From contig JAUIIM010000002.1 in the NCBI GenBank assembly GCA_030431785.1, positions 37,927-101,926 of the forward strand: a stretch of DNA of 64,000 nt, written 5' to 3'. A model generated the notes under the pieces. It was not told the DNA's origin and searched no databases. It worked only from the letters and a program-made list of their open reading frames with translations. How positions within the stretch are numbered: position 1 is the first letter of the stretch; each line of letters opens with the position of its first letter. A program made the position numbers and the translations under genes. Shown here one piece after another: positions 13,815-63,953 of the stretch. This DNA is from Acidimicrobiia bacterium (lineage in GTDB: Bacteria; Actinomycetota; Acidimicrobiia; Spongiisociales; UBA5794).

Positions 13815-13856
13815 CGACGAACGACGAACGACCAATGAACGATGACCAACGAACGA
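13815..13856. repeat. degenerate heptamer tandem array (CGACGAA-type, 6 units)
   Basis: CGACGAA CGACGAA CGACCAA TGAACGA TGACCAA CGAACGA read directly. Lies in the polA-rpsA intergenic region (rpsA leader). Confidence 0.85.
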
Positions 13857-13914
13857 GCCCCAGCGGCACGAGAGTCGTCCTTGCGGCGAAGCGCACGACG
13901 TCGTACCTTCGTCG

Positions 13915-13942
13915 TTTGTCCTTTGTCCTTTGTCCTTTGTCC
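13915..13942. repeat. perfect heptamer tandem repeat TTTGTCC x4 (GGACAAA on the rpsA sense strand)
   Basis: Four exact consecutive units read directly, 19 nt downstream of the polA stop. Confidence 0.95.
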
Positions 13943-13960
13943 TCTGTAGGCGCAGCCGGG

Positions 13961-16582: not shown

Positions 16583-16593
16583 GATGGCAGAGT

Positions 16594-16628
16594 ACTCAGT
16601 ACGCAGCACTCAGCACTCAGTACCGAGA
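16594..16628. repeat. heptamer tandem array ACTCAGY-type (5 units)
   Basis: ACTCAGT ACGCAGC ACTCAGC ACTCAGT ACCGAGA. Begins 12 nt upstream of the polA ATG. Confidence 0.9.
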
Positions 16629-23476: not shown

Positions 23477-24997
23477 CTAACGCAGGTCGCTGGACGCCTC
23501 GACGGCGGCCAGGACCGCTGCCGCCTTGTTCACGCACTCCTGGTACTCCGCGCCGGGATCGGAATCGACGACGACCCCCGCACCGGCTTGTACCCAAGCG
23601 GTGGTGCCGTCGACGACGCAGGTGCGCAATGCGATCGCTGTGTCGAGCGAACCGGAGAAGTCGACATATCCGACAGCACCGGCATACGGACCACGGGCAG
23701 TCGGCTCCAGCTCGTCGATGATCTCCATCGCCCGGACCTTGGGGGCACCACTGACCGTGCCGTGCGGGAACGTCGCCCTCAGGACGTCGATCGGTCCCTT
23801 CCCGGATGCGAGCTTGCCACTGACGCCACTCACGATGTGCATCACATGCGAATAGCGCTCGATCACCATGAGGTCGTCGACATGGACCGACCCATGCTCA
23901 CACACACGTCCGAGGTCGTTGCGTGCGAGATCGATGAGCATCGTGTGTTCGGCACGCTCTTTGGGATCGGCGAGGAGCTCTGCTTCCAATCGCTGGTCCT
24001 CTTCCTCGGTAGCGCCCCGCGGCCGCGTGCCAGCGATCGGACGCGAGTAGGCGATGCCGTCACGCACCCGGGACATGAGCTCCGGGGAGGAGCCGACGAT
24101 CGCCGTCGAGCCCGACTTGACCAAGAACATGAACGGGGACGGATTGACGAGCCGTAGGGCGCGGTACAGCGCAAACGAGTCGCCGTGGAAGTCCACCTCG
24201 AAACGGAGCGAGGGCACGATCTGGAACGCATCGCCAGCGATGATGTATTCGACCGCCCGTCTTACGGATCGCTCGAAGTCCTCCCTCGTCATATTCGCCT
24301 GAGCAACGGGGCGTGCGTCGAACTTCGGTCGTCCGGAGGCGACCGATCGCACCGGAGCCGCGAGTGCTTCACCTGCCGCCCGGAGTTCGGTCAGCGCCTG
24401 TTCGTAGTCCGACACGGGATCGCCCCCGACGAACACGTTGCGGAACAGCGTGATCGAATCTCTGAGCCGGTCGAACGCGGCAACGCCACCGGCGAACTGC
24501 CAGAGCATCTCGGGTAGACCACGGTCGTCGTGCGGCCGATCCGGCAGGTGCTCCACGTACCGCACTGCGTCGTACGCCAGGTAGCCGACAGCTCCCGAGT
24601 GGAGCGGGGGCACGGCGCCCGGAAGATTCATCTCGTCAGGCTCCGGCGTGGTGAACCGATCGAGAAGGTCCTCCAACACCTCGAGCGGATCCCCATCCGC
24701 TATCGGAATCGACGGATCGTCGACGCTGGCAGTTCCGTCGTGTGACGTCAGGGTGAACGCCGGATCCCAGCCGATGAACGACCAACGGGCCCAACGCTCC
24801 CCCCCTTCGACCGACTCGAGGAGAAACCCGTCGCCGTCCCCGACCAGCCGTTCATACACGGACACCGGCGTCAGGTGATCTGCGACGACCTCGATCGCGA
24901 CAGGGACCACGGCGAATCGCTCAGCAAGGGCGAGAAAGGCAGCATGGTCCAGCGAGGCATTCATGGAGTGGGACAGTAGTTCCCCGACATCCGACAT
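23477..24997 (-). CDS. trpE: anthranilate synthase component I
   Basis: LLESVEGGERWARWSFIG, GAVGYLAYD, IAGTRPRG, and C-terminal GGAVGYVDFSG..DTAIALRT. Start is ambiguous: the ATG at 24997 lies inside a heptamer repeat, and the ATG at 24964 (MNASLDH) is the alternative. Confidence 0.92.
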   Translation of the reverse strand: MSDVGELLSHSMNASLDHAAFLALAERFAVVPVAIEVVADHLTPVSVYERLVGDGDGFLLESVEGGERWARWSFIGWDPAFTLTSHDGTASVDDPSIPIADGDPLEVLEDLLDRFTTPEPDEMNLPGAVPPLHSGAVGYLAYDAVRYVEHLPDRPHDDRGLPEMLWQFAGGVAAFDRLRDSITLFRNVFVGGDPVSDYEQALTELRAAGEALAAPVRSVASGRPKFDARPVAQANMTREDFERSVRRAVEYIIAGDAFQIVPSLRFEVDFHGDSFALYRALRLVNPSPFMFLVKSGSTAIVGSSPELMSRVRDGIAYSRPIAGTRPRGATEEEDQRLEAELLADPKERAEHTMLIDLARNDLGRVCEHGSVHVDDLMVIERYSHVMHIVSGVSGKLASGKGPIDVLRATFPHGTVSGAPKVRAMEIIDELEPTARGPYAGAVGYVDFSGSLDTAIALRTCVVDGTTAWVQAGAGVVVDSDPGAEYQECVNKAAAVLAAVEASSDLR

Positions 24998-25007
24998 CCG
25001 ACATCCG
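24984..25007. repeat. heptamer repeat CCGACAT x3 (ATGTCGG on the trpE sense strand)
   Basis: Three exact units plus a partial fourth, read directly. Each unit carries an ATG on the trpE strand. Confidence 0.95.
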
Positions 25008-25837: not shown

Positions 25838-26009
25838 GAGGGATAAAGAGACGAAGGGACAAAGGGACGAAGGGAACAAAGGACAAAGGACAAAGGAACA
25901 AGGGACGAAGGGAACAAGGGAAGAAAGGGAGACGGGGACACGGGGAACAAGGGAAGAAGGGAAGACGGGGAACAAGGCAACACGGGAATGGGAGGTGGGG
26001 CGATGGGGA
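25838..26009 (+). repeat. purine-rich ~8-nt tandem array (NNAAGGGA-type, ~20 units)
   Basis: Read directly: ..CGAAGGGA CAAAGGGA CGAAGGGA ACAAAGGA CAAAGGA CAAAGGA ACAAGGGA CGAAGGGA ACAAGGGA AGAAAGGGA GACGGGGA CACGGGGA ACAAGGGA AGAAGGGA AGACGGGGA... I count 17 runs of G3 or longer on the + strand. Confidence 0.95.
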
Positions 26010-26045
26010 TCCGGTGCTGGTCACAAAGAACGGGGGTGTGCTCGG

Positions 26046-27299
26046 ATGGGGTTACCCTGCAACGCCATGACCATGTCCCCCTACGGGCCGCACGTCGCGC
26101 CCACACAACGCGTGCCAGCCTCAGTGCGCCGAGTGATCTTCCTCACCGCACTCATCGGATTCGTCGCCGGATACGGTGCGAGCCAGATGTCCCACACCCT
26201 CCCGTTCGCCCGGAATTCTCTCGATCTCACCGAAGGTCAGATGAGCACCATCTTTGCCGGTGTACGCGCTGCATCACTCCTCGGCGTCGTGTTTGCGATC
26301 ATGGCGGACCGGATCGGACGGAGGAAGCCTCTCCTCGGTGCATTCGTCGTCTTGTGTTTCGGGAGTCTCGCCACCGCATTCATCCCGTCCGTGCCCGCCT
26401 ATGTCCTGGCACAGGCGTTCGTGCGAATCGCCGTCGTTGCGATCGCAGCGATTTCCATCGTGCTCATCGCCGAGGAGACCCCCGCAGGCAACCGGGCCAT
26501 CGCTCTCGGCATCTACGGTCTTGCCGGGTCTCTCGGCGTCGGCCTCGGCCTCGTCTTGCTGCCGATCGCCGAAGGAAGCGACGAGGCGTGGCGCATCCTG
26601 TTCGGGATCGCATCGCTCGGCCTCCTCATCGTTCCGCTGCTCGCACGATTCCTCCCTGAATCGAAGGCATTCGTGCCGGCTCCTCCGTTCCCGTTCCTGA
26701 AGGCACTCTCCATGGGACTCGGCAAGCACTTCTGGCCGTTGGCCGGTGTCGCGTTCTTCGTCGCTGCGTTCTCCAGCCCGGCGTTCGATTTTGTCCTCGA
26801 GCGCCTGATCAACGACCTCGCATGGGACACCGGGGCGGCACGCTTCCTCTTGATCGTGTTCTCCGGAGTCGGCACTGTTGGGCTCCTCGTCGGCGGGCGC
26901 CTGGCCGACCGCATCGGACGCCGACCGACCACCGCCATCGCCTTGGCGATAGGACTCGTCGGAGGCGTCGGGTTCTACCTGCTCGATTCGGGCTGGTTCC
27001 TCGCCATCTCGATCTTCCTCGCAACATTGGGGGCCACGATGCTCACGCCGTCGTTCGCAGCACAGAAGGCCGAGCTCTTCCCAACCCGACTCAGGTCGAC
27101 CGCCGGTGGATGGATCACGAACTCCGGCATCGTGGGTTCGATTGCGGGCTTCACGGTGGGCGGGATGATGATCGACCGATATGGGCTCGCCACGACGGTT
27201 GCGGCGCTCTCGCTCGGACTGCTCATCTCGATCTTCCTGAACCTCAGACTGCCGGAGACGAGGGGGATGGATCTCGTCCGGCGGCCAGAACCCCGTTGA
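26046..27299 (+). CDS. MFS transporter
   Basis: Twelve hydrophobic segments. The MFS loop signature occurs twice (IMADRIGRRKP and GGRLADRIGRRPT). The track ORF starts at 25683 through the repeat array. The real start is the ATG at 26046 or 26067. Confidence 0.85.
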   Translation: MGLPCNAMTMSPYGPHVAPTQRVPASVRRVIFLTALIGFVAGYGASQMSHTLPFARNSLDLTEGQMSTIFAGVRAASLLGVVFAIMADRIGRRKPLLGAFVVLCFGSLATAFIPSVPAYVLAQAFVRIAVVAIAAISIVLIAEETPAGNRAIALGIYGLAGSLGVGLGLVLLPIAEGSDEAWRILFGIASLGLLIVPLLARFLPESKAFVPAPPFPFLKALSMGLGKHFWPLAGVAFFVAAFSSPAFDFVLERLINDLAWDTGAARFLLIVFSGVGTVGLLVGGRLADRIGRRPTTAIALAIGLVGGVGFYLLDSGWFLAISIFLATLGATMLTPSFAAQKAELFPTRLRSTAGGWITNSGIVGSIAGFTVGGMMIDRYGLATTVAALSLGLLISIFLNLRLPETRGMDLVRRPEPR

Positions 27300-29315: not shown

Positions 29316-29759
29316 ATGATCGTCGAGTCCACCACCATCGACCGGCTTCGTGGCTCCTACGCGAGCTGTTTCGGGTGCGGGCTGGACAACCTGCACGGGC
29401 TGCAGCTGGACGGGTTCGAACGCGACGGCGACCGCGTGACGACGGTTGTGGAGATCCCTGAGCGTTTCTGCGGTTTCGAGGGTGTCGTCCACGGCGGAGT
29501 TGTCGCCACGACCCTCGACGAGATCTCCGCATGGGCAGCGATGCTCACCGAGGGGGTGTTCGTGTTCACCGCACGGCTGGACATCTCCTACCGGAGAAAG
29601 GTTCCGGCATCGGAACGTCTCGAACTGCGCGCCGTCGTGCGAGAACGCCGGAGCCGTAGGTTGGCGATCGAAGCCGAGCTATGTGCCGATGACGTCACAC
29701 TGGCCTCTTCCGAAGGGCTATTCGTCGTGGCCGGTGCGATCGACGATCTGATCGATTAG
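29316..29759 (+). CDS. PaaI-family (hotdog fold) thioesterase
   Basis: C-terminal 147 aa of track ORF 28449..29759: CFGCGLDNLHGLQL.., VVHGGVVATTLDEISAWA. The upstream 289 aa are antisense to nth/MATE and were rejected. Confidence 0.75.
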   Translation: MIVESTTIDRLRGSYASCFGCGLDNLHGLQLDGFERDGDRVTTVVEIPERFCGFEGVVHGGVVATTLDEISAWAAMLTEGVFVFTARLDISYRRKVPASERLELRAVVRERRSRRLAIEAELCADDVTLASSEGLFVVAGAIDDLID

Positions 29760-30205
29760 CCGAACATGGCGGCGACAGCGACGCCGAACGCAATGAAGGC
29801 GAACCCGCCGATGACCTGCCAGAACGCCCGTGGGTTGGCCTCGGGCCGTAGTCCCTCGCGGAGTCGGTCCTGGGGCGATCGACGCTGCCGGCCCGTCCAC
29901 GACTCCCCGAGGTCTTCGTCCGCCTCGTCAGTCCTCCGCGAACCGAACATCGCTCCGGCCGCACCGATACCGAGACTGGTGTAGCCGCCGCCGGTCGCAC
30001 CACCGGCAAGCAACATGACGATGCCGATCGTGACGATCGTGTACCCGACCGCTGCTCCCACAGCGACATCCCAGATCAGGGAGATGACGAAGCCGATGAC
30101 GATCCCTGCTCCAACCCCGGCACCGAACACCGCGAGGTACTCAGGAAGGCGATCCCGAAGGGGAAGCTCGATCTCGTCTGGAGCGTCACTGAAGTCGTTG
30201 GTCAT
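29756..30205 (-). CDS. hypothetical membrane protein (Gly/Ala-rich TM segments)
   Basis: ORF track. Three to four hydrophobic segments and a charged central loop. No family recognised. Confidence 0.55.
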   Translation of the reverse strand: MTNDFSDAPDEIELPLRDRLPEYLAVFGAGVGAGIVIGFVISLIWDVAVGAAVGYTIVTIGIVMLLAGGATGGGYTSLGIGAAGAMFGSRRTDEADEDLGESWTGRQRRSPQDRLREGLRPEANPRAFWQVIGGFAFIAFGVAVAAMFG

Positions 30206-30216
30206 CGCAAACGAGG

Positions 30217-30480
30217 CTACCTGACGCGACTGCGCTCCATGCGCTGAAGCAGCCGGACACAGCCAGCGATCGCAAACCCGAGAGCGGTGGCGACGGCGAC
30301 GAGGATCAGCCCGAGTTCCAGAATCGCAAAGGGCGACGTGCTACACGTGCCGAGTCCGTCCGGACACAAACCGAGCCCGGAACCACCGAGGACCAGGTCG
30401 AACAGGGCGATCGCCGGGAGCGCCACCACGACGGCGAACGCCGCGATCAGTGCACCGAGAACGAACCGGATGGCGGTCAT
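30217..30480 (-). CDS. hypothetical small membrane protein (2 TM, Cys-containing loop)
   Basis: ORF track. MTAIRFVLGALIAAFAVVVALPAIALF..CPDGLGTC..ILELGLILVAVATALGFAIAG. Lies 12 nt upstream of the next membrane-protein gene. Confidence 0.5.
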   Translation of the reverse strand: MTAIRFVLGALIAAFAVVVALPAIALFDLVLGGSGLGLCPDGLGTCSTSPFAILELGLILVAVATALGFAIAGCVRLLQRMERSRVR

Positions 30481-30487
30481 GCGGGCA

Positions 30488-30612
30488 GGATAGGACGAGG
30501 ATCACGGGAGCAAGGGACAAAGGGACAAAAGGGACGAAGGGACAAAGGACAAGGGACGAAGGGACAAAGGGAGCAAGGGACAAAGGGACGAAGGGACGAA
30601 GGGACGAAGGGA
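30488..30612 (+). repeat. GGGACRAA-type octamer tandem array (~13 units)
   Basis: Read directly: CAAGGGA CAAAGGGA CAAAAGGGA CGAAGGGA CAAAGGA CAAGGGA CGAAGGGA CAAAGGGA GCAAGGGA CAAAGGGA CGAAGGGA CGAAGGGA CGAAGGGA. There are 13 G3 runs between 30506 and 30611. Confidence 0.95.
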
Positions 30613-30651
30613 TCGTGGATCATGGATCATGGATCATGGATCGTGGATGGA
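30610..30651 (+). repeat. GGATCRT heptamer tandem array (6 units, 5 GATC sites)
   Basis: GGATCGT GGATCAT GGATCAT GGATCAT GGATCGT GGATGGA, read directly. It abuts the octamer array. Confidence 0.95.
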
Positions 30652-30653
30652 TG

Positions 30654-30690
30654 TCCGACCATCCGACAATCCGACAATCCGATCATCCAA
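30654..30690 (+). repeat. TCCGAYMA octamer tandem array (4 units plus a partial unit)
   Basis: TCCGACCA TCCGACAA TCCGACAA TCCGATCA TCCAA, read directly. Confidence 0.9.
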
Positions 30691-30755
30691 TTTTTGACGC
30701 TGCCTGCTGGGACGCGGTGCCCGCTATCGTGCGATGCGTGTCCGAGACTCCACCG

Positions 30756-32387
30756 ATGAACCCGTTCCACGTCGAATCGTTCACCGACGCCGAGGCCGCG
30801 ATCCTCAACCGCTACTTCACGAACCTCGACCAGCCCGTGTTCGGCATCACCGGCCTCCCCGAGGTCGTCAAGGGGGCGCTCTTCGCCCGATACAGCCGGT
30901 CGCCCAAGTCCGTCCGACGGCTCTTCCTCGACGAGTTCATCGAAGACGGTGAAACCGGGATCGCAGCCATCGCCGCCCACACCGGGGCGGGTGATCCGTT
31001 GGGGCGGGATCGGGCAGAGCGGCTGTATGACACCGTGTTCACCCAGTACGGGGACGACTCGGTCGCCCAGCTGGGCGGTGCCCACCTCGCCGTCGAGCAG
31101 GCATCGAACATCCTGACGAAGGTCCTGGAGTGGGGTCGCCTCGCTTCGTACCTCGAGCAATCGACCAGGTACATCTTCTACGACCAGCCCCTTGGTGGCC
31201 GATACCGGTATCACACCCCCGCGGAACTCACCGACGACGCACGAGCCACCTACACGCAACACATGGATCGGATGTTTGCGACGTACTCGGATGTCGTGGC
31301 TCGACTCGTCGCCTACTACGAGAAGCTGTACCCGAAGCACGACGGCGACTCTGCGTTCGTATGGCGGTCGACCATCCGAGCACGTGCCTGTGACGACGCA
31401 CGGGGCCTACTCCCAGCCTCGACACTCTCGAATGTCGGGATCTTCGCCTCCGGGCAGGCGTACGAAGCCTTGCTGCTACGGATGCGAGCCCATCCGCTCG
31501 CCGAGGTCCGCTGGTTCGGCGATCTCATGCTCGCCGAACTCCGCAAGCTGATCCCTTCGTTCATGAAGCGAGTGGACGTGCCGGATCGCGGCGGGGTCTG
31601 GTCGCACTACCTCGGCGACATCGACCGGTCGATGCGCGAACTCGCTGCATCCATCGAGATGGACCAGCCATCGGCACCGACCGTGCAACTGGTCGAGTTC
31701 GACCCGGAAGGCGAACGCAAGGTCGCTGCTGCTGCGTTGTATCGCTATTGCAGCGCGTCGGACGCCGTCATCCGCGATGCCGTCGCAAAAATGTCCGAGA
31801 CGGAAATCGATGAAATCTTCGATGCCTACGTCGGGAATCGGACGAACCGTCGACACAAGCCCGGACGTGGCATGGAACAGACCTTCTATCGCTTCGACAT
31901 CCTGTGCGACTACGGCATCTTTCGGGATCTCCAACGGCACCGGATGATGACGATCGAATGGCAACCGCTCTCCCCCGCCCACGGATACGTGACCCCACCG
32001 TCGATCGATGACATCGGGGCGACCGACACGTGGGACGAGGCGATGGCGGCGTCCGCCGATCTCTACGAGGCGATCAGCGCGGCAGCGTCGAGCGACCTTG
32101 CCCAGTATGTCGTCCCGTTCGCCCAGAACATCCGCTTCATCATGAATCTCAACGCTCGAGAAGCGTTCCACCTGATCGAGCTCCGCACGCAGCAGGGTGG
32201 ACACCCCGACTACCGACGCGTCTGCCAAGAGATGCATCGCCAGATCCGCGAGGTCGCAGGACACCAGCGGATTGCCGATGCGATGTCGTTCGTCGACTAC
32301 GACAACTACGACCTGGGCCGTCTGGAGACCGAACGGCGGGCTGCGGCCAAGCGGGCGGCCGCCGGTCTTGGCGATCCCTCAGCGTGA
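30756..32387 (+). CDS. ThyX-like (Thy1 domain) protein, long ~543-aa form
   Basis: ALFARYSRSPKS in the N-terminal half. FRDLQRHRMMT and HLIELRTQQGGHPDYRRV in the C-terminal half recall ThyX motifs. The track ORF starts at 30450 through the repeat arrays. I prefer the ATG at 30756 (MNPFHVESF). Confidence 0.7.
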   Translation: MNPFHVESFTDAEAAILNRYFTNLDQPVFGITGLPEVVKGALFARYSRSPKSVRRLFLDEFIEDGETGIAAIAAHTGAGDPLGRDRAERLYDTVFTQYGDDSVAQLGGAHLAVEQASNILTKVLEWGRLASYLEQSTRYIFYDQPLGGRYRYHTPAELTDDARATYTQHMDRMFATYSDVVARLVAYYEKLYPKHDGDSAFVWRSTIRARACDDARGLLPASTLSNVGIFASGQAYEALLLRMRAHPLAEVRWFGDLMLAELRKLIPSFMKRVDVPDRGGVWSHYLGDIDRSMRELAASIEMDQPSAPTVQLVEFDPEGERKVAAAALYRYCSASDAVIRDAVAKMSETEIDEIFDAYVGNRTNRRHKPGRGMEQTFYRFDILCDYGIFRDLQRHRMMTIEWQPLSPAHGYVTPPSIDDIGATDTWDEAMAASADLYEAISAAASSDLAQYVVPFAQNIRFIMNLNAREAFHLIELRTQQGGHPDYRRVCQEMHRQIREVAGHQRIADAMSFVDYDNYDLGRLETERRAAAKRAAAGLGDPSA

Positions 32388-33543: not shown

Positions 33544-34568
33544 CCCATGTGGTCATCGTCACCGGGGCCGGCGGTGTCGGCAAGACGACGATCGCCGCAG
33601 CCCTTGCGATCCAGTACGCACGAACCGGAGCGCGGACGATGGTCATCACCATCGATCCGGCGAAGCGTCTGGCCGATGCGTTGGGCGTCGGAGAACTCCG
33701 CAACGATCCAGCCCCGGTACCCGAGGAACCGGGGCTCGATGCGGCGATGCTCGACGTCACTGCCTCGTGGGAGGACATCATCCACCGCTACGCCGATCCT
33801 GACGTCGCCGCCCGTCTGTTGGTCAACCCGTACTTCCGTGCCATCGCAGATCGCTTCCCCGCTGCCCAGGCGTATGCCGCCGGCGAGCGGATGGCATCCA
33901 TCGTCGAATCGGGCCACTACGACGTCCTCGTCCTCGACACACCGCCCTCCGGCGGAGGCATCGACTTCTTCCGCGCTCCAAAGGGCACCAGAGACCTGGT
34001 CTCGGGACGTCTCCTGAAATGGCTCACCGGGTCGCATCTACCCGGGCGCAGTGTTCTGTTCCGCCTCACCGCACGACCGATACTGAGGATCGCTGACACG
34101 GTCCTCGGTGGCCCGATGCTCTCAGATGTAGCGGATTTCCTTCTCGACCTTCGTACGACCTACGACCAACTAGCGAACCGGTCGAAGGCCATCGAACGCC
34201 ATCTCGGGCGGGCACAGGTCCATGTCGTGACCACGGCAGACCCTGCACCGTTGCACGAGACGAGACGGTTCTTCGACGAGCTTGCGACCGTCAACATCGA
34301 ACCGACCGCGATCATCTTCAACAGGATGCTGCCTTCCACGTGGCTCGGTCCGGTCGACGTACCGGAGGGGACGAACCCGCTGCTGGTCACCAACCTTGCG
34401 TCGTGGGCCGCAGAGTCGAGACGTCAACGCGACGCTGCACGAGAGCTCGAGACTCGCCACGGGGTTCCTGTGCATCGCATCGAGTGGGCGGTACCACCGC
34501 CCACGGGACTCGATCAACTCGCCGCACTGGTCGATGGGCGGGATCTCCTGACGGAGCTACATCACTGA
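33540..34568 (+). CDS. ArsA/Get3-like P-loop ATPase (second of pair)
   Basis: MTHVVIVTGAGGVGKTTIAAALA, TIDPAKRLADALG, VLVLDTPPSGG. The ATG at 33540 overlaps the upstream stop (ATGA). The track ORF start at 33069 is rejected. Confidence 0.85.
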   Translation: MTHVVIVTGAGGVGKTTIAAALAIQYARTGARTMVITIDPAKRLADALGVGELRNDPAPVPEEPGLDAAMLDVTASWEDIIHRYADPDVAARLLVNPYFRAIADRFPAAQAYAAGERMASIVESGHYDVLVLDTPPSGGGIDFFRAPKGTRDLVSGRLLKWLTGSHLPGRSVLFRLTARPILRIADTVLGGPMLSDVADFLLDLRTTYDQLANRSKAIERHLGRAQVHVVTTADPAPLHETRRFFDELATVNIEPTAIIFNRMLPSTWLGPVDVPEGTNPLLVTNLASWAAESRRQRDAARELETRHGVPVHRIEWAVPPPTGLDQLAALVDGRDLLTELHH

Positions 34569-37500
34569 GGTCGGACCGAACAGCTCACGGAGCTCGGCGA
34601 ACAACGCCGACCGAGGACTGACCGCGTACTCTGAGCTGACCCGGACTACCCGCACTCCCTGTTCGCTCGTCATGTGGACGTAGACCGGCGACGGTCCCGG
34701 ATGGTTCGAAAGGACATCACGCAGCTTTTGTGCGACCGTTGCCGACATTCTCGATGCCGCGACCTTGACACGGACGCTCGCATCCGTCGACAGTTCCGGT
34801 TCGCTGACCCCTTGCACGATGAACTTGACGTCGTCCCCGCGGTGGTCGACCCTGCCCCGCAGGATCAGGACCGCATCCTGTCGGATCATGGGGCCGTACT
34901 CGGCGACGGTCTTGGGGAACGCGACGGCTTCGACGGAACCCGACAGACCTTCCACGGTGAAGTACACCATCGGATCACCGCCTCGTGTGAAGCGACGATT
35001 CAACGCCCCGACGACACCACCGATGGTCGCTTGCGCTCGGTCTTCCTTTTCCCACAACTCCGGGATCTCGGTGTTGGTGAGGGACGCCATGGCGTTCTCC
35101 ACTCCGAGAAGCGGATGGTCGGATATGTAGAGACCGAGCATCTCCTTCTCGAACCCGAGCTTGATCTTCTTCTTCCACTCGTGGTCAGGGATCTCCGGCT
35201 GGACCTCTCCGACGTCGGACGAGGCACCGCCGAAGAGGCTGAACTGGCCGGCTTCCTCTGCACGTCGCCGATCCACGTTGGCGTCGATCACCAGAGGGGC
35301 GATCTCGAACAACCCGCGTCGAGGGTGGCCGAGATTGTCGAAAGCGCCTGCCTTGATCATGGATTCGATGGTCCGCTTGTTCAACACCTGGACGTCGACA
35401 CGGTCGATGAAGTCGAAGAAGTCCTTGTATGGGCCGTTCTCCATCCGCTCGGCGACGATGAGGTCCGTGACCTTCTCCCCTACGTTGCGGACAGCCGACA
35501 GACCGAAGATGATCTTCCCGTCGTGTGCGAGGAAATCCCGCTCGGACACGTTGACACCGGGCACTTCGACCGAGATCCCCATCATGCGACACTCATGCAG
35601 GTAGGCCGCCGTCTTGTCCTTGTCTCGCTTGACCGCCGTCAACAGCGCTGCCATGTACTCGGTCGGATAGTGCACCTTGAGCCACGCGGTCTGGTACGCC
35701 ACCAGCGCATACGCGGCTGAGTGCGACTTGTTGAACCCGTATCCGGCGAAGTGCTCGATGAATCCGAACAGGTCCTTTCCGAGCTGCTCGTCGTATCCCT
35801 GGACCACGGCACCTGCGACGAACAGCTCCCGCTGCTCGGCCATCAGCGCAGGGATCTTCTTCCCCATCGCCTTCCGCAGGTTGTCCGCCTCCGGCAGCGA
35901 GAACCCGGCGATCACCTGGGCGGCCTGCATGACCTGTTCCTGGTAGACCATGACGCCGTAGGTGTCGTCGAGCACCTGCGCAAGGTCCGGATGGAGGTAC
36001 TCGACTTCTTCCTTGCCGTTCTTCCGGTCCGCATACGTGAGGTGCATGTTCGCACCGAGCGCTCCCGGGCGGTACAGGGCGTTGAGTGCGATGAGGTGTT
36101 CGAACACGTCGGGTTGGAGATTGCGCATCAGGGCGCGCATCGGTCCGCCCTCGAACTGGAAGACGCCGACGGTGTCGCCGGCGCGGAACATCTCGAACAC
36201 CTTCTCGTCGTCGAGTGGGATCGAGTCGATGTCCGGACGGGAGCCCGTATTCCGTTCGATAAGCTCGAGCGCACGTTCGATGGTCGCGAGATTCCGGAGG
36301 CCGAGGAAGTCCATCTTGAGCAGCCCGAGCGCCTCGACCCCGTGCATCTCGTACTGGGTCACGACTTCGCCGTCCTCACCCTTTCTCTGGATGGGCACGA
36401 TGTGCGTGAGCGGTTCCGGCGAGATCACCACCGCAGCAGCATGGATGGAGTCCTGACGTCGCAGCCCTTCGAGACCTCGCGCGGTTTCGAGGATCTCGCG
36501 CGCACCGTCCATCGTCTCGATCAGATCCCGCAGACCTGCCGCGGCCGTGTAGTGGTCGCGTACGTCCTGTGGTGTGTCCGGCCCCGGCGGCGTGAGGCAC
36601 TGGCCGATCGTGGCCTCTTTGCCGAGGATGGCCGGCGGCATCGCCTTTGCCAGCTGGTCGCCCGCTGAATAGGGGTAGTCGAGGACGCGGGCGGCATCAC
36701 GTATGGCCTGTTTCCCCTTGATCGTGGAGAACGTGATGATCTGGGCGACATGATCGGATCCGTACTTCTCCGCGGTGTACTTGATCATGTCCCCCCGGTA
36801 CCGCTCATCGAAGTCCATGTCGATATCGGGCATCTCCTTGCGGCCCGGGTTCAAGAAGCGTTCGAAGATCAAGCCATAGGCGAGCGGATCCAGGTCGGTG
36901 ATCCGGAGACAGTATGCGACGATCGAACCGGCAGCACTCCCCCGGCCGGGTCCGGTACGGATGCCGTTGGCGGCCGCATAGGCGATCAGGTCCCAAACGA
37001 TCAGGAAGTAGGAGGAGAAGCCCATGTCGGAGATCACGCGGAGTTCGTAGTCGATCCTGTCCTGGGTTTCCTGGTCGAGCGAGCCGTACCGTTCCCTCGC
37101 CCCCGCCATCACCAGCTCGCGGAGATAGGAATCCTCATCATGTCCCTCGGGCACGTCGAAGGGGGGAAGCAGGACCTGATCGAGATCGAGTTCGACGTTG
37201 GCTCGCTCTGCAATCCATAGCGTGTTTTCGCACGCCCCCGGGTAGTCGTCCGAGGGGAAGAGGGCACGCATCTGTTCGGCAGACTTGACGTAGAACTCTT
37301 GCGAGTGGAACTTGAACCGGTCCTCGTCCGCCTTGACCGAGCCCGTCTGGATGCACAACAACGCATCGTGGGCGTCCGCCTCGTGGGCATACGTGTAGTG
37401 CGAATCGTTCGCTGCCAACAGCGGTATGTCGAGACGGCCCGAGATGTCGAGAAGGTCGGCCATGATCTTGCGCTGCGCCGGGATCCCATGGTCCTGGATC

Positions 37501-38060
37501 TCCATGAAGAAGTTGTCGCGACCGAAGATGTCCTGGTACATCGCGGCTGTTTCCAATGCCTTGTCGAAGTCGCGCTCGGTGCCCTTCTGGTCGTCGTCGG
37601 CGGCTTCGTCGACACCGAGCAGCTGTGGAACATGTCCGCCCAGGCAACCGGTCGTTGCGATGAGTCCTTCGGAGTGCTCGGCGAGGAGCTCGGCATCGAC
37701 GCGCGGCTTGTAGTAGTAGCCCTCGAGATAGGCGCGGGAGGCAAGCTGCATCAGGTTGCGGTAGCCGGTCTCGTTCTCGGCGAGGATCGTCGTGTGGTAC
37801 CGGACGTCGTCGCGTCGAGGCAGGCGATCGTGGCGCGACCCCGGTGTCAGGTATGCCTCCAGCCCGATGATCGGCTTCACGCCGACATCGCGTGCCGCCT
37901 TCACGAAGTCGACGACACCGTAGAGGACACCGTGGTCCGTGATCGCGACAGCGGGTTGTCCATCGGCGGCGACTGCTTCGACGAGATCTGCAACGCGGGC
38001 GGCACCGTCGAGCATCGAGAACTCGGTGTGTACATGGAGGTGAGCGAAGCTGTCAGCCAT
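34557..38060 (-). CDS. dnaE: DNA polymerase III alpha subunit
   Basis: PHP domain FAHLHVHTEFSMLDGA, palm/fingers GRKEMPDIDMDF, FNKSHSAAYA, and OB-fold tail. 1167 aa. Confidence 0.96.
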   Translation of the reverse strand: MADSFAHLHVHTEFSMLDGAARVADLVEAVAADGQPAVAITDHGVLYGVVDFVKAARDVGVKPIIGLEAYLTPGSRHDRLPRRDDVRYHTTILAENETGYRNLMQLASRAYLEGYYYKPRVDAELLAEHSEGLIATTGCLGGHVPQLLGVDEAADDDQKGTERDFDKALETAAMYQDIFGRDNFFMEIQDHGIPAQRKIMADLLDISGRLDIPLLAANDSHYTYAHEADAHDALLCIQTGSVKADEDRFKFHSQEFYVKSAEQMRALFPSDDYPGACENTLWIAERANVELDLDQVLLPPFDVPEGHDEDSYLRELVMAGARERYGSLDQETQDRIDYELRVISDMGFSSYFLIVWDLIAYAAANGIRTGPGRGSAAGSIVAYCLRITDLDPLAYGLIFERFLNPGRKEMPDIDMDFDERYRGDMIKYTAEKYGSDHVAQIITFSTIKGKQAIRDAARVLDYPYSAGDQLAKAMPPAILGKEATIGQCLTPPGPDTPQDVRDHYTAAAGLRDLIETMDGAREILETARGLEGLRRQDSIHAAAVVISPEPLTHIVPIQRKGEDGEVVTQYEMHGVEALGLLKMDFLGLRNLATIERALELIERNTGSRPDIDSIPLDDEKVFEMFRAGDTVGVFQFEGGPMRALMRNLQPDVFEHLIALNALYRPGALGANMHLTYADRKNGKEEVEYLHPDLAQVLDDTYGVMVYQEQVMQAAQVIAGFSLPEADNLRKAMGKKIPALMAEQRELFVAGAVVQGYDEQLGKDLFGFIEHFAGYGFNKSHSAAYALVAYQTAWLKVHYPTEYMAALLTAVKRDKDKTAAYLHECRMMGISVEVPGVNVSERDFLAHDGKIIFGLSAVRNVGEKVTDLIVAERMENGPYKDFFDFIDRVDVQVLNKRTIESMIKAGAFDNLGHPRRGLFEIAPLVIDANVDRRRAEEAGQFSLFGGASSDVGEVQPEIPDHEWKKKIKLGFEKEMLGLYISDHPLLGVENAMASLTNTEIPELWEKEDRAQATIGGVVGALNRRFTRGGDPMVYFTVEGLSGSVEAVAFPKTVAEYGPMIRQDAVLILRGRVDHRGDDVKFIVQGVSEPELSTDASVRVKVAASRMSATVAQKLRDVLSNHPGPSPVYVHMTSEQGVRVVRVSSEYAVSPRSALFAELRELFGPTSVM

Positions 38061-38262
38061 TGAGGACCATCATCGAATCACACGCATGTAAGCATGTTCC
38101 CATCGTTGTTCGCAGCGGTCGCCCAGAGCGGAATTCGGTGCGAAGTCGCGTCGTCTCCCGCGCCGCCTAAGGTACTACCCCGACGGGCACTCGCGGAACG
38201 CTTTCGGCAGACCGTACCCGTCGCGTACACGAATCCAGAACGAGCAGTGATAGGGAGACATC

Positions 38263-63754: not shown

Positions 63755-63799
63755 CGTTCGGTGTCTCCATCATCCATCTCTCCATCGTGGAAGTCTCCT

Positions 63800-63825
63800 C
63801 CCACGACGCCCCACTATGCCCCACT
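63800..63825 (-). promoter_or_regulatory. candidate MraZ operator: three GTGGG direct repeats at 10-nt spacing
   Basis: On the + strand CCCAC occurs at 63800-04, 63810-14 and 63820-24. The minus strand reads GTGGGGcataGTGGGGcgtcGTGGGA. The boxes lie 46-71 nt upstream of the mraZ ATG. Confidence 0.6.
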
Positions 63826-63953
63826 TCGCGCCATTTGTCAACACAAAGCCGCCACAACGACCCCGACCCCTCCCCGAGGACGTCGGGCACCGAATCGTCG
63901 ACGGACACGCCGCCTGCGACTTTCTGTCGCACGGTGCCGGTAGCGTCCCGTCC

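What the first reader, a model, noticed from the sequence alone, without database searches (positions are those of the whole stretch)
30488..30690. Three abutting short-tandem-repeat arrays fill the divergent region upstream of the ThyX-like gene
About 200 nt between a minus-strand membrane-protein operon and the ThyX-like gene is almost entirely tandem repeat. It holds ~13 GGGACRAA octamers, then 6 GGATCRT heptamers (5 GATC sites at 7-nt spacing), then 4 TCCGAYMA octamers.

Unit lengths are not multiples of three, so this is not a peptide repeat, even though the block has no stop codon and the ORF track fuses it to the downstream gene. The first array has 13 G3 runs with mostly 5-nt spacers on the strand that would be the ThyX-like mRNA leader. 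That is a textbook multi-G-quadruplex configuration.

The AAGGGA/AAGGA units also look like iterated Shine-Dalgarno or GGA protein-binding motifs, as in Csr/Rsm-type sponge RNAs. Heptamer intergenic arrays are known as STRR elements in heterocystous cyanobacteria. I am not aware of an equivalent described for high-GC actinobacteria. Possible roles, all speculative, are a G4 switch, a regulator or RNA-binding-protein landing pad, or a slipped-strand contingency locus.
Basis: partly seen in the sequence, partly recalled or inferred. Interest (0 to 1): 0.72.

Follow-up and report, generated by a model that had tools for sequence, protein, structure and literature searches.

The report
Hypervariable short-repeat tract between two promoters
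The 180-base block is a real, non-coding cluster of three abutting 7- and 8-base tandem repeats in an uncultured Acidimicrobiia bacterium that changes far faster than its flanks between near-identical strains; it is a new example of a known kind of bacterial microsatellite, and nothing here shows a G-quadruplex or RNA switch.

Summary
**Observation: confirmed.**
- Window 30506-30685 holds 13 GGGACRAA-type octamers, 5 GGATCRT heptamers plus one degenerate unit, and 4 TCCGAYMA octamers.
- They lie in the 275-nt divergent spacer between an 87-aa membrane-protein gene (start 30480, minus strand) and the ThyX-like gene (true start 30756).
- An independent short-read assembly reproduces array 1 exactly.

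**Strain comparison is the key result.**
- Three alleles exist among strains 98.7-99.98% identical.
- One strain differs at 2 positions in 11.7 kb outside the block and at about 33 columns within about 95 nt inside it.
- Relatives at about 75% protein identity have no repeats in this spacer.

**Position argues against an RNA role.** Each strand of the spacer has only one TANNNT (-10-like) hexamer. Both lie next to their own genes and outside the arrays. The arrays therefore probably sit upstream of both core promoters and are not an mRNA leader.

**No support for structure or sponge.** There is no Rfam hit and no hairpin structure. G4Hunter is 1.07, below the usual 1.2. Sister arrays use GGACAAA, which has only G2 runs.

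**Best reading.** This is a slippage-generated, hypermutable long-unit simple sequence repeat (SSR) filling unconstrained promoter-spacer DNA. It is the same kind as cyanobacterial STRR and Xanthomonas GGGAATC repeats. A tuning role for the flanking promoters is possible but untested.

**Verdict.** New member of a known kind; modest interest.

The parts
30506..30608 (+). Array 1: 13 octamer-type units (GGGAGCAA / GGGACAAA / GGGACGAA, one GGACAA). Purine-rich on the + strand; 12 G3 runs plus one in the hybrid unit at 30609.
   Evidence: TRF; regex counts; exact copy in independent assembly L037; only about 6-7 units in L032.
30609..30653 (+). Array 2: hybrid unit GGGATCGT, then GGATCRT x5 (GATC every 7 nt), then degenerate GGATGGATG.
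   Evidence: TRF. Replaced by about 11 GGCTCAY-type units (TRF 11.4 copies) in L032. A GGCTCAY x4 + GGATCAT x2 mix in L038/L039.
30654..30685 (+). Array 3: TCCGAYMA x4. It shares the ATCCGAC core with the heptamer array at 24984-25007.
   Evidence: TRF. Four units in L032; three, with substitutions, in L038.
30686..30700 (+). A/T-rich TCCAATTTTTGACG segment next to array 3. It is polymorphic: replaced by TGATTCGACG, with a 15-nt gap, in L038/L039.
30725..30730 (+). TATCGT, the only TANNNT on the + strand of the spacer. Candidate -10 of the ThyX-like gene, 25 nt before its ATG.
   Evidence: TACGGT lies upstream of the thyX start, at variable distance, in L033/L034/L035. Inferred, not mapped.
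30487..30492 (-). TATCCT (read on the minus strand), the only TANNNT on that strand. It ends 6 nt before the ATG of the 87-aa gene, giving a candidate leaderless promoter.
   Evidence: The same TANNNT-6/7 nt-start layout occurs in L034 (TAGCAT), L035 (TAGCCT) and L013 (TAGCGT). Inferred, not mapped.
30217..30480 (-). 87-aa predicted membrane protein with no Pfam family. First gene of the minus-strand pair; its divergent pairing with the ThyX-like gene is conserved across Acidimicrobiia.
29756..30205 (-). 149-aa predicted membrane protein with no Pfam family. Second gene of the minus-strand pair.
30756..32387 (+). ThyX-like gene (543 aa). Pfam Thy1 domain at residues 311-501; scores below the TIGR02170 cut-off.
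25839..25988 (+). Sister array of the same unit family (AGGGACAA / GGACAAA / GGGAASAA, about 16 units). It lies in the divergent spacer between a DsbD-like gene (start 25777, minus) and an MFS transporter gene (start 26067, plus).
   Evidence: The only TANNNT hexamers (25812 minus, 26053 plus) lie outside the array.
13906..13947 (-). Sister array: GGACAAA-type units on the minus strand (TRF period 7, 6.0 copies; 4 exact GGACAAA). It starts 14 nt after the stop of the upstream minus-strand gene and has only G2 runs.
13815..13856 (.). A second 7-mer array (CGACGAA / CGAACGA type) in the same co-directional intergenic region.
24984..25007 (.). CCGACAT x3.4 heptamer array (ATCCGAC core, as in array 3) at the 5' edge of the Chorismate_bind gene.
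16594..16620 (.). ACTCAGC x3.9 heptamer array in the intergenic region, or at the extreme 5' edge, of the gene 13961-16609.

Best explanation
**What it is.** The block is a compound, hypermutable simple sequence repeat (SSR, microsatellite-type) tract with long units of 7-8 nt.

**Origin and maintenance (inferred).** It arose, and keeps changing, through replication slippage or unequal recombination.

**Where it sits (shown).**
- It occupies the least constrained DNA of a divergent intergenic region, the spacer between two back-to-back core promoters.
- One is a probable leaderless promoter for the 87-aa membrane-protein gene. The other is the ThyX-like gene's promoter.
- Relatives have a compact 50-170-nt spacer here. 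This lineage has added about 180 nt of repeats between the promoters.

**Transcription (inferred).** The arrays are non-coding and most likely lie upstream of both transcription starts, so they are not part of either mRNA.

**Consequence (inferred).** The tract is mostly neutral filler. At most it changes the distance and upstream DNA seen by the two promoters.

**Wider context (shown).** It is one locus of a lineage-wide tendency. Other 7- and 8-nt arrays, some with the same units, sit in neighbouring intergenic regions.
For: **Structure.** Three head-to-tail arrays with periods 8, 7 and 8.

**Non-coding.** The periods are not multiples of 3, and homologues start at the residue encoded at 30756.

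**Hypermutability.**
- L032 versus the window: 66 of 170 differing alignment columns fall in 30505-30688, which is 1.6% of the 11.3-kb alignment.
- L038 versus the window: 2 differences in about 11.7 kb outside the block, against about 33 differing columns in about 95 nt inside it.

**Unit turnover typical of slippage.**
- The array 2 boundaries (GGGATCRT ... GGATGGATG) are shared by the window and L032. The interior differs: GGATCRT x5 in the window and about 11 GGCTCAY-type units in L032.
- L038, whose 5' end is cut by the contig start, has a mix of both unit types and ends in GGGGTGACG.
- Array 1 has 13 units in the window and about 6-7 in L032, with the first three identical.

**Recent, lineage-specific gain.** There are no repeats in the orthologous spacer of L033/L034/L035 (about 75% protein identity) or of most Acidimicrobiia. 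Their spacers are about 50-170 nt.

**Position.** There is exactly one TANNNT per strand in the spacer, each next to its own gene and outside the arrays. The sister array at 25839-25988 has the same layout.

**No specific element detected.** No Rfam match. No structure better than shuffles. No consensus sigma-70-type promoter or terminator.

**Lineage-wide trait.**
- Nine arrays of period 7, 8 or 10 in six intergenic regions (or at their edges) of the window.
- Four to six heptamer arrays in or at the edge of intergenic regions of L035, and further arrays in L013 and L016.
- Unit sequences are diverse: GGATCAT, GGCTCAY, ATCCGAC, ACTCAGC, CGACGAA, AGCTAAC and others.

**The octamer is not special.** Composition-matched control octamers are as frequent as GGGACRAA in viral contigs, 3 hits each.

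Against: - **Unit families recur.** They recur within 64 kb more than random nucleation would predict: GGGACAAA/GGACAAA at three loci and ATCCGAC at two. In L013 several arrays share a GTCTCA core. Pure local slippage does not explain this.
- **Spacer length is preserved.** The two complete alleles have almost the same total spacer length, 275 versus 276 nt, although array 1 shrank and array 2 grew by about 55 nt each. This could mean selection on spacing, or it could be coincidence with n = 2.
- **The A/T-rich segment also varies.** It lies at about -40 to -50 of the predicted thyX promoter, so expression could differ between alleles.
- **Promoter positions are inferred.** They rest on a single-hexamer rule and on relatives, not on mapped transcription starts. 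Other sigma factors are not covered.
- **L032 is low quality.** It comes from a contig whose name suggests about 2x coverage, and it carries single-base indels elsewhere. Its exact copy numbers are therefore less certain. Its unit types are confirmed by L038/L039.
Confidence: 0.6

Rival explanations
1. **Contingency-type expression tuner.** Changes in copy number and unit type alter the output of one or both divergent promoters. The route could be the distance or phase between them, upstream (UP-element-like) DNA, or supercoil coupling. A natural population would then carry alleles with different levels of ThyX-like protein or membrane protein. Promoter-region heptanucleotide repeats at hmw1A in Haemophilus influenzae work this way.
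For: - Hypervariability between near-identical strains. Two alleles occur in neighbouring sequencing runs SRR24075711/12 versus SRR24075713.
- The arrays start at about -26 of the predicted leaderless promoter and end at about -52 of the predicted thyX promoter.
- The polymorphic A/T-rich segment lies at about -40 to -50 of the thyX promoter.
- Total spacer length is nearly constant in the two complete alleles.
- Intergenic SSRs that modulate transcription are documented (PMC8262952 and PMC12721329, found).
Against: - The repeats are not between -35 and -10 and not inside an ORF, which are the positions where classical switches act.
- The flanking genes are a ThyX-like enzyme, small membrane proteins and, at the sister locus, DsbD-like and MFS genes. 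These are not the surface, restriction or host-interaction genes typical of contingency loci.
- The first three units next to the leaderless promoter are identical in the alleles.
- Similar arrays sit in convergent and co-directional intergenic regions, where no promoter is involved.
Confidence: 0.2
2. **DNA G-quadruplex element.** The G3 tracts of array 1 fold into one or more G4s on the + strand when the spacer is unwound by divergent transcription. The folded DNA would act as a supercoil sink, or as a block or activator for the promoters.
For: - Thirteen G3 runs, mostly with 5-nt loops. Three non-overlapping canonical G3+N1-7 matches fall in array 1, and six of the ten matches in the whole window fall in the two large arrays.
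- Array 1 stays unpaired in Watson-Crick folding.
- G-rich GGGAATC-type SSRs form G4 in vitro in Xanthomonas and Nostoc (PMC4692102).
Against: - G4Hunter mean is 1.07. Only the last 27 nt reach 1.33, and more than 100 unrelated stretches in the window reach 1.2.
- Sister arrays of the same family use GGACAAA, with G2 runs, at 13906 and within 25857-25911. The G-run length is therefore not conserved.
- L032 keeps only about six G3 runs.
- PMC4692102 found G4-type repeats under-represented between divergent ORFs and peaking at four units. Here the spacer is divergent and the array has 13 units.
- Arrays 2 and 3, and most other arrays in the lineage, are not G-rich.
Confidence: 0.1
3. **Transcribed RNA element.** The arrays would form a 5' leader with an RNA G4 or Shine-Dalgarno mimics, or a Csr/Rsm-like sponge that titrates an RNA-binding protein.
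For: - Iterated AAGGGA/AAGGA motifs lie on the sense strand of the downstream gene at all three GGGACAAA-type loci.
- MacGregor proposed post-transcriptional roles for TAACTGA repeats that lie close to start codons (PMC4679880).
Against: - No candidate -10 hexamer lies upstream of, or inside, the arrays on the + strand.
- The arrays end 70 nt before the start codon, with the predicted promoter in between.
- No Rfam family matches.
- There is no hairpin context for the GGA motifs.
- Copy number and sequence are not conserved between strains.
Confidence: 0.04
4. **Artefact or coding.** The block would be an assembly or consensus error, or an N-terminal peptide repeat of the ThyX-like protein.
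For: - Mechanical ORF 30450-32387 runs through the block.
- Short-read contigs break at the arrays.
Against: - An independent assembly reproduces array 1 exactly.
- The unit types recur in three further assemblies.
- The periods are 8, 7 and 8. Homologues lack any N-terminal extension.
- The absence of stop codons follows from the near-absence of T in array 1. For arrays 2 and 3, my reading is that none of the unit triplets is a stop codon.
Confidence: 0.01

Closest known systems
Long-unit (5-11 nt, especially heptameric) intergenic simple sequence repeats of large, high-GC, free-living bacteria (Mrazek et al. 2007 as cited in PMC4692102; survey PMC4060949)
   Same: - Head-to-tail near-perfect units of 7-8 nt.
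- Confined to intergenic DNA.
- Present in a 63% GC genome.
- Patchy distribution even among relatives.
- Copy number and sequence vary between close strains.
- No established function; polymerase slippage is the proposed origin.
   Different: - Not previously reported for Acidimicrobiia, as far as the held literature shows.
- Three different unit families abut in one spacer here.
- Octamers are as prominent as heptamers.
G-rich GGGAATC / GGGGA(C/T)T quadruplex-forming repeats of Xanthomonas and Nostoc (Rehm et al. 2015, PMC4692102)
   Same: - G3-tract SSR dispersed at several intergenic loci.
- Extensive length and sequence variation between close relatives.
- Associated genes are ordinary metabolic genes.
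- The function is unresolved.
   Different: - The unit is the octamer GGGACRAA with 5-nt A-rich loops, and G4Hunter is about 1.07.
- There are 13 units, not the preferred four.
- It lies between divergent ORFs, the class under-represented in that study.
- Sister arrays have G2 runs.
- G4 formation has not been tested.
STRR heptanucleotide families of heterocystous cyanobacteria (three tandem heptanucleotides in Calothrix PCC 7601, cited in PMC4692102)
   Same: Genome-specific families of short tandem units that recur at many intergenic loci, with unknown function.
   Different: - Different phylum and different unit sequences.
- Unit length mixes 7 and 8 nt.
- Only 64 kb was surveyed here, so genome-wide dispersal is not shown.
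Promoter-region heptanucleotide SSRs that grade expression in Haemophilus influenzae (hmw1A; PMC8262952, PMC12721329)
   Same: A 7-nt-unit SSR upstream of a gene; hypermutable copy number; alleles coexist in natural populations.
   Different: - No expression data here.
- The genes are not surface adhesins.
- The array probably lies upstream of both transcription starts, not in a 5' UTR.
- The tract combines three unit families.
TAACTGA intergenic direct repeats of Beggiatoaceae, cyanobacteria and Bacteroidetes (MacGregor 2015, PMC4679880)
   Same: One heptamer family repeated in tandem in many intergenic regions, with a patchy phylogenetic distribution.
   Different: Those repeats lie mostly within a few nucleotides of start codons, with 2-6 copies. 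[quoted passage not shown]

Membership tests
Long-unit simple sequence repeat (microsatellite-type SSR) | Head-to-tail, perfect or near-perfect iterations of a short unit | tested here: met
   TRF: periods 8, 7 and 8 with 85-95% matches; regex counts.
Long-unit simple sequence repeat (microsatellite-type SSR) | Copy-number or unit polymorphism between closely related genomes, far above the flanking substitution rate | tested here: met
   Three alleles. 66 of 170 differing columns fall in 1.6% of the L032 alignment. Against L038 there are 2 differences in 11.7 kb outside the block and about 33 columns in about 95 nt inside.
Long-unit simple sequence repeat (microsatellite-type SSR) | Units that are not multiples of 3 nt are excluded from coding sequence | tested here: met
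   All arrays of period 7, 8 or 10 with at least 3 copies in the window lie in intergenic regions or at their extreme edges. Four to six of the L035 heptamer arrays lie in or at the edge of intergenic regions; one (2071-2095) lies inside a called gene. Gene boundaries in the window are my own reading, not an annotation.
STRR (cyanobacterial short tandemly repeated repetitive sequences) | Heptanucleotide unit from one of the described cyanobacterial families | tested here: not met
   The units are GGGACRAA, GGATCRT and TCCGAYMA, of 8, 7 and 8 nt, in Acidimicrobiia. The STRR unit sequences themselves are recalled from memory and were not re-read.
STRR (cyanobacterial short tandemly repeated repetitive sequences) | The same unit family dispersed at many loci of one genome | tested here: inconclusive
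   GGGACAAA/GGACAAA occurs at 3 loci and ATCCGAC at 2 loci within 64 kb. The rest of the genome is not available.
G4-forming SSR (Rehm et al. 2015) | At least four G3 tracts with short loops | tested here: met
   Three non-overlapping G3+N1-7 matches in array 1. G4Hunter is only 1.07.
G4-forming SSR (Rehm et al. 2015) | GGGNATC-type heptamer, preference for four units, location between aligned ORFs close to gene ends | tested here: not met
   The unit is an octamer, there are 13 units and the spacer is divergent. [quoted passage not shown]
G4-forming SSR (Rehm et al. 2015) | K+-dependent quadruplex formation in vitro | not testable with these tools
   Requires CD or UV melting of oligonucleotides.
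Contingency (phase-variable) locus | A hypermutable SSR | tested here: met
Contingency (phase-variable) locus | SSR placed inside an ORF or between the -35 and -10 elements, so that unit changes switch expression | tested here: not met
   The arrays lie outside the ORFs and outside the single TANNNT hexamer of each strand. The promoter positions are inferred.
Contingency (phase-variable) locus | Reversible change of expression with copy number | not testable with these tools
   Requires reporter assays or allele-resolved transcript data.
Csr/Rsm-type sponge RNA | Match to a described sponge RNA family | tested here: not met
   Rfam 15 at gathering threshold finds only a tRNA in the window. At E<=1 the only hit in 30300-30900 is a chance miRNA match of 16.8 bits.
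Csr/Rsm-type sponge RNA | GGA motifs presented in hairpin loops of a transcribed RNA | tested here: not met
   Array 1 is unpaired in the DNA fold of the + strand, which folds worse than shuffles (z = +2.6). The RNA fold was run on the minus strand only (z = +0.4). No promoter-like hexamer lies upstream on the + strand.
Csr/Rsm-type sponge RNA | A CsrA/RsmA partner protein in the genome | not tested
   Only 64 kb of the genome is available.

The most novel reading that the evidence does not exclude
One lineage of uncultured Acidimicrobiia may carry an STRR-like system that is more than slippage noise. Genome-specific 7-8-nt unit families (GGGACAAA, ATCCGAC and others) would be seeded or spread among intergenic regions by a sequence-directed process. 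At divergent promoters they would act as population-level, length-compensated tunable spacers that set the expression of housekeeping genes such as the ThyX-like gene. This would be the first contingency-like long-unit SSR system in Actinomycetota.
Probability: 0.12. Interest if true: 0.6.

Novelty: new member of a known kind. Interest (0 to 1): 0.3.

Why it matters
- **Extension of a known class.** If the ordinary reading holds, the locus shows that the poorly understood class of long-unit intergenic SSRs extends to uncultured Acidimicrobiia. The class is so far known from cyanobacteria, Xanthomonas and Beggiatoaceae.
- **A clean natural example of the mutation rate.** Divergence per site is roughly three orders of magnitude higher inside the block than in the flanks. 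This estimate rests on only 2 flank differences.
- **Practical consequences.**
  - Such arrays break short-read assemblies at predictable places; the contigs here end exactly in them.
  - They create false long ORFs, such as the 645-aa 'ThyX' ORF.
  - They could serve as strain-typing markers in metagenomes.
- **If the tuning reading were true,** it would give a testable case of SSR-driven expression heterogeneity for a nucleotide-metabolism gene in a free-living, non-pathogenic bacterium.

Tried and rejected
- **Consensus promoter and terminator scan of 30100-31000.** Nothing found. I replaced it with the actinobacterial TANNNT rule and comparison with relatives.
- **Rfam.** Nothing relevant at gathering threshold on the whole window or at E<=1 on the spacer.
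- **Watson-Crick folding of the spacer.** No structure better than shuffles as DNA (+ strand) or RNA (- strand). No inverted repeats inside the block.
- **Is GGGACRAA a special, widely conserved unit?**
  - A metagenome scan found more than 120 contigs with GC from 26% to 70%.
  - Two composition-matched control octamers were as frequent in viral contigs, 3 hits each. The counts are small, but on this evidence I dropped the idea of a special unit.
- **Dispersed single copies of the units as a binding-site regulon.** GGGACRAA occurs only 5 times outside arrays in 128 kb of both strands, about what I estimate for chance. No shuffle control was run.
- **GATC/Dam reading of array 2.** The sites are absent from the L032 allele.
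- **GC skew and replication-strand reasoning.** The skew is weakly negative throughout and gives no clear signal.
- **Literature.** No paper on Acidimicrobiia tandem repeats and none containing the octamer dimers.
- **Genome-contig scan.** It returned only relatives at 49-59% identity, so the source genome itself was not available for a genome-wide survey.
Full report
**1. What is in the sequence**

The flagged block is real.

- TRF finds three abutting arrays:
  - 30512-30612, period 8, 12.8 copies.
  - 30610-30648, period 7, 5.6 copies.
  - 30654-30682, period 8, 3.6 copies.
- Direct counting gives:
  - 13 G3 runs between 30506 and 30609: 10 GGGAC, 2 GGGAGC and one hybrid GGGATC, plus one shortened GGACAA unit.
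  - Five clean GGATCRT heptamers with GATC every 7 nt, followed by a degenerate GGATGGATG.
  - Four TCCGAYMA octamers ending at 30685.
- Array 1 has a single T in 113 nt, so no stop codon can occur on that strand. By my reading, none of the triplets generated by arrays 2 and 3 is a stop either. This is why the mechanical ORF 30450-32387 (645 aa) fuses the block to the downstream gene.

**2. Context**

- The downstream gene encodes a 543-aa ThyX-family protein.
  - Pfam Thy1 matches residues 311-501.
  - It scores 76.7 bits against TIGR02170, below the cut-off of 87.9.
  - It starts at ATG 30756. The 99% relative is 543 aa and other homologues are 527-575 aa, so there is no N-terminal extension and the repeats are not coding.
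- On the other side lie two small predicted membrane proteins with no family: 87 aa (30217-30480) and 149 aa (29756-30205), both on the minus strand.
- The source organism is an uncultured Acidimicrobiia bacterium.
- The divergent pairing of the small membrane gene with the ThyX-like gene is conserved across the class, with a spacer of roughly 50-170 nt. In the window the spacer is 275 nt, of which about 180 nt is repeat.

**3. Strain comparison, the decisive evidence**

Three other assemblies carry this locus.

- **L037** (Logan, SRR24075713) is 99.9% identical to the window. It reproduces 30488-30604 exactly and ends inside array 1. The array is therefore not an assembly artefact.
- **L032** (ENA ERZ25072999) is 98.7% identical over 11.3 kb.
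  - Of its 170 differing alignment columns, 66 lie in 30505-30688.
  - Its allele reads (GGGACAAA-type) x 6-7, then GGGATCAT, then about 11 GGCTCAY-type units (TRF 11.4 copies), then GGATGGATG, then (TCCGACMA) x 4.
- **L038/L039** (Logan, SRR24075711/12) encode a ThyX-like protein identical to the window's.
  - They differ at 2 positions in about 11.7 kb outside the block.
  - Within about 95 nt of the block they differ at about 33 columns.
  - Their allele reads ...(GGCTCAY) x 4, (GGATCAT) x 2, GGGGTGACG, (TCCGACAR) x 2-3. The A/T-rich TCCAATTTTTGACG is replaced by TGATTCGACG.

The pattern has three parts.

- Array 2 keeps its boundaries between the window and L032 while its interior is replaced.
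- L038, whose 5' end is cut by the contig start, carries both unit types.
- Array 1 keeps its first three units and then changes in number.

This is the unit turnover expected from slippage or unequal exchange. Relatives at about 75% ThyX identity (L033, L034, L035) have no repeats in this spacer.

One caveat applies. L032 comes from a contig whose name suggests about 2x coverage, and it has scattered single-base indels. Its exact copy numbers are soft, but the short-read contigs confirm its unit types.

**4. Where the arrays sit relative to promoters (inferred)**

- Between 30380 and 30760 there is exactly one TANNNT hexamer on each strand.
  - On the minus strand it is TATCCT (30492-30487), ending 6 nt before the ATG of the 87-aa gene. 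This is the geometry of a leaderless transcript.
  - The same TANNNT-6/7 nt-start layout is present in L034 (TAGCAT), L035 (TAGCCT) and L013 (TAGCGT).
  - On the plus strand it is TATCGT (30725-30730), 25 nt before the thyX ATG. TACGGT lies upstream of the thyX start, at variable distance, in L033/L034/L035.
- The arrays contain no TA dinucleotide at all on the plus strand.
- The sister array at 25839-25988 shows the same arrangement. It has one TANNNT per strand (25812 minus, 26053 plus), both outside the array and next to their genes.
- The arrays therefore fill the space between two back-to-back core promoters. They probably do not belong to either mRNA.
- This rests on a hexamer rule for actinobacterial sigma-A promoters (established knowledge) and on relatives. 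It does not rest on mapped transcription starts.

**5.

- **RNA or sponge.**
  - No Rfam family matches at gathering threshold on the window or at E<=1 on the spacer.
  - The spacer folds worse than shuffled controls as DNA (z = +2.6). The minus strand folds about the same as shuffles as RNA (z = +0.4).
  - No inverted repeats lie in the block.
- **G-quadruplex.**
  - The canonical regular expression matches three times in array 1.
  - G4Hunter averages 1.07, and more than 100 unrelated 25-nt stretches in this window reach 1.2.
  - The same unit family occurs as GGACAAA, with G2 runs, at 13906-13947 and inside 25857-25911.
  - L032 keeps only about six G3 runs.
- **GATC sites.** They are not conserved between alleles.
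- **Binding-site regulon.** Single copies of GGGACRAA outside arrays occur about as often as I estimate for chance. No shuffle control was run.

**6. A lineage-wide trait**

- In the window, every array with period 7, 8 or 10 and at least 3 copies lies in an intergenic region or at its edge: 13815-13856, 13906-13947, 16594-16620, 24984-25007, 25839-25988, 30506-30685 and 63764-63833.
- L035 has six heptamer arrays in 21.7 kb.
  - Four lie in intergenic regions.
  - One lies at the 3' edge of a called gene.
  - One lies inside a called histidine-kinase gene that looks truncated.
- L013 and L016 carry other 7- and 8-nt arrays. Most other Acidimicrobiia loci have none.
- Unit sequences are diverse, which argues against one binding protein.
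- Families nevertheless recur: GGGACAAA/GGACAAA at three loci and ATCCGAC at two. This is more than random nucleation would give and remains unexplained.

**7. Wider distribution**

- (GGGACRAA)3 occurs in more than 120 metagenome contigs with GC from 26% to 70%.
- Other arrays in those contigs are mainly period 8 (95) and period 7 (37).
- With crude ORF calls, the G-rich strand is the sense strand of the gene ending just upstream in 46 cases against 22. Divergent spacers are the rarest class, 6 of 44. This echoes PMC4692102. The window's two large arrays are thus in the atypical position.
- Two composition-matched control octamers gave the same number of hits as GGGACRAA in viral contigs, 3 each. 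The counts are small, but they give no sign that the octamer itself is special.

**8. Comparison with what is known**

- PMC4692102 describes G-rich heptameric SSRs (GGGAATC, GGGGAYT) in Xanthomonas and Nostoc.
  - They are over-represented in non-coding DNA and vary strongly between close relatives.
  - They form G4 in vitro, and no function has been identified.
  - The paper cites Mrazek 2007 for the excess of heptamers in large high-GC genomes and for a polymerase-slippage explanation.
  - It also cites the three Calothrix heptanucleotides (STRR).
- PMC4060949 confirms that 4-11-nt SSRs are not suppressed in prokaryotes.
- PMC4679880 describes intergenic TAACTGA repeats.
- PMC8262952 and PMC12721329 document promoter or 5'-UTR SSRs that change expression in Haemophilus.
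- I found nothing on Acidimicrobiia or on these octamers.

**9. Verdict**

The hypervariable slipped-strand element is shown. A contingency function remains untested. The mRNA-leader G4 and Csr-sponge readings are not supported.
- The best explanation is a slippage-generated, hypermutable compound SSR that fills non-transcribed spacer DNA between two divergent promoters (confidence 0.6). A promoter-tuning role is the main rival (0.2) and a DNA G4 role is a minor one (0.1).
- Novelty: new member of a known kind. Interest: about 0.3.

Noticed in passing
L045, L071, L072, L076, L102 (metagenome contigs, GC 64-70%): Five contigs with different flanks share an element of about 190 nt. It reads (GGGACRAA)4-GGYGGCACRRAATC, then about 100 nt, then CCCGCCTTCGTCCC(TTTGTCCC...)4. 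The two ends are inverted arrays of four octamers. It looks like a MITE-like or structured dispersed element whose ends are octamer arrays.
   Followed up: partly
L042-L121 (80 metagenome loci with (GGGACRAA)3): With crude ORF calls, the G-rich strand is the sense strand of the gene ending just upstream in 46 cases against 22. Many arrays have an inverted C-rich partner array 30-150 nt away. Only 6 of 44 classifiable loci are divergent spacers. This suggests a 3'-end, terminator-like context in other phyla.
   Followed up: partly
window 24984-25007: On the minus strand the heptamer array reads (ATGTCGG)3. This places three ATG codons 7 nt apart at the 5' edge of the Chorismate_bind (anthranilate-synthase-like) gene. 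One of them (24997) is in frame with the alternative start at 24964. The copy number is the same in L040/L041.
   Followed up: partly
window 25976-26054: The sequence just after the sister array is more G4-prone than the flagged array. GGGGAACAAGGCAACACGGGAATGGGAGGTGGGGCGATGGGGATCC has G4Hunter 1.4-1.56. It lies immediately upstream of the predicted near-leaderless MFS promoter TACCCT at 26053.
   Followed up: no
window 30756-32387: The ThyX-like protein is about twice the usual ThyX length (543 aa). The Thy1 domain scores mainly in the C-terminal half, and the protein falls below the TIGR02170 equivalog cut-off. Thousands of homologues of this length exist, mostly from Acidimicrobiia.
   Followed up: no
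L013 9577-9677: A distant Acidimicrobiia MAG has two abutting arrays, (GTCTCACG)4 and (TTGAGAC/TCAAGAC)7. Their cores are reverse complements of each other. They lie in the convergent intergenic region just downstream of the homologous small membrane gene. Other arrays on the same contig share the GTCTCA core.
   Followed up: partly
window 30481-30755 versus L032 2076-2351: Total spacer length is 275 versus 276 nt, although array 1 lost and array 2 gained about 55 nt each. This is either coincidence or length compensation.
   Followed up: no
L032 6154-9658 versus window 34557-38069: The DNA polymerase III alpha gene is split in L032 (307 + 850 aa) but intact in the window and in L038 (1152-1171 aa). 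L032 has a single-base indel near 37160. This is probably a sequencing error in a low-coverage contig, which is a reason to treat exact L032 copy numbers with caution.
   Followed up: partly
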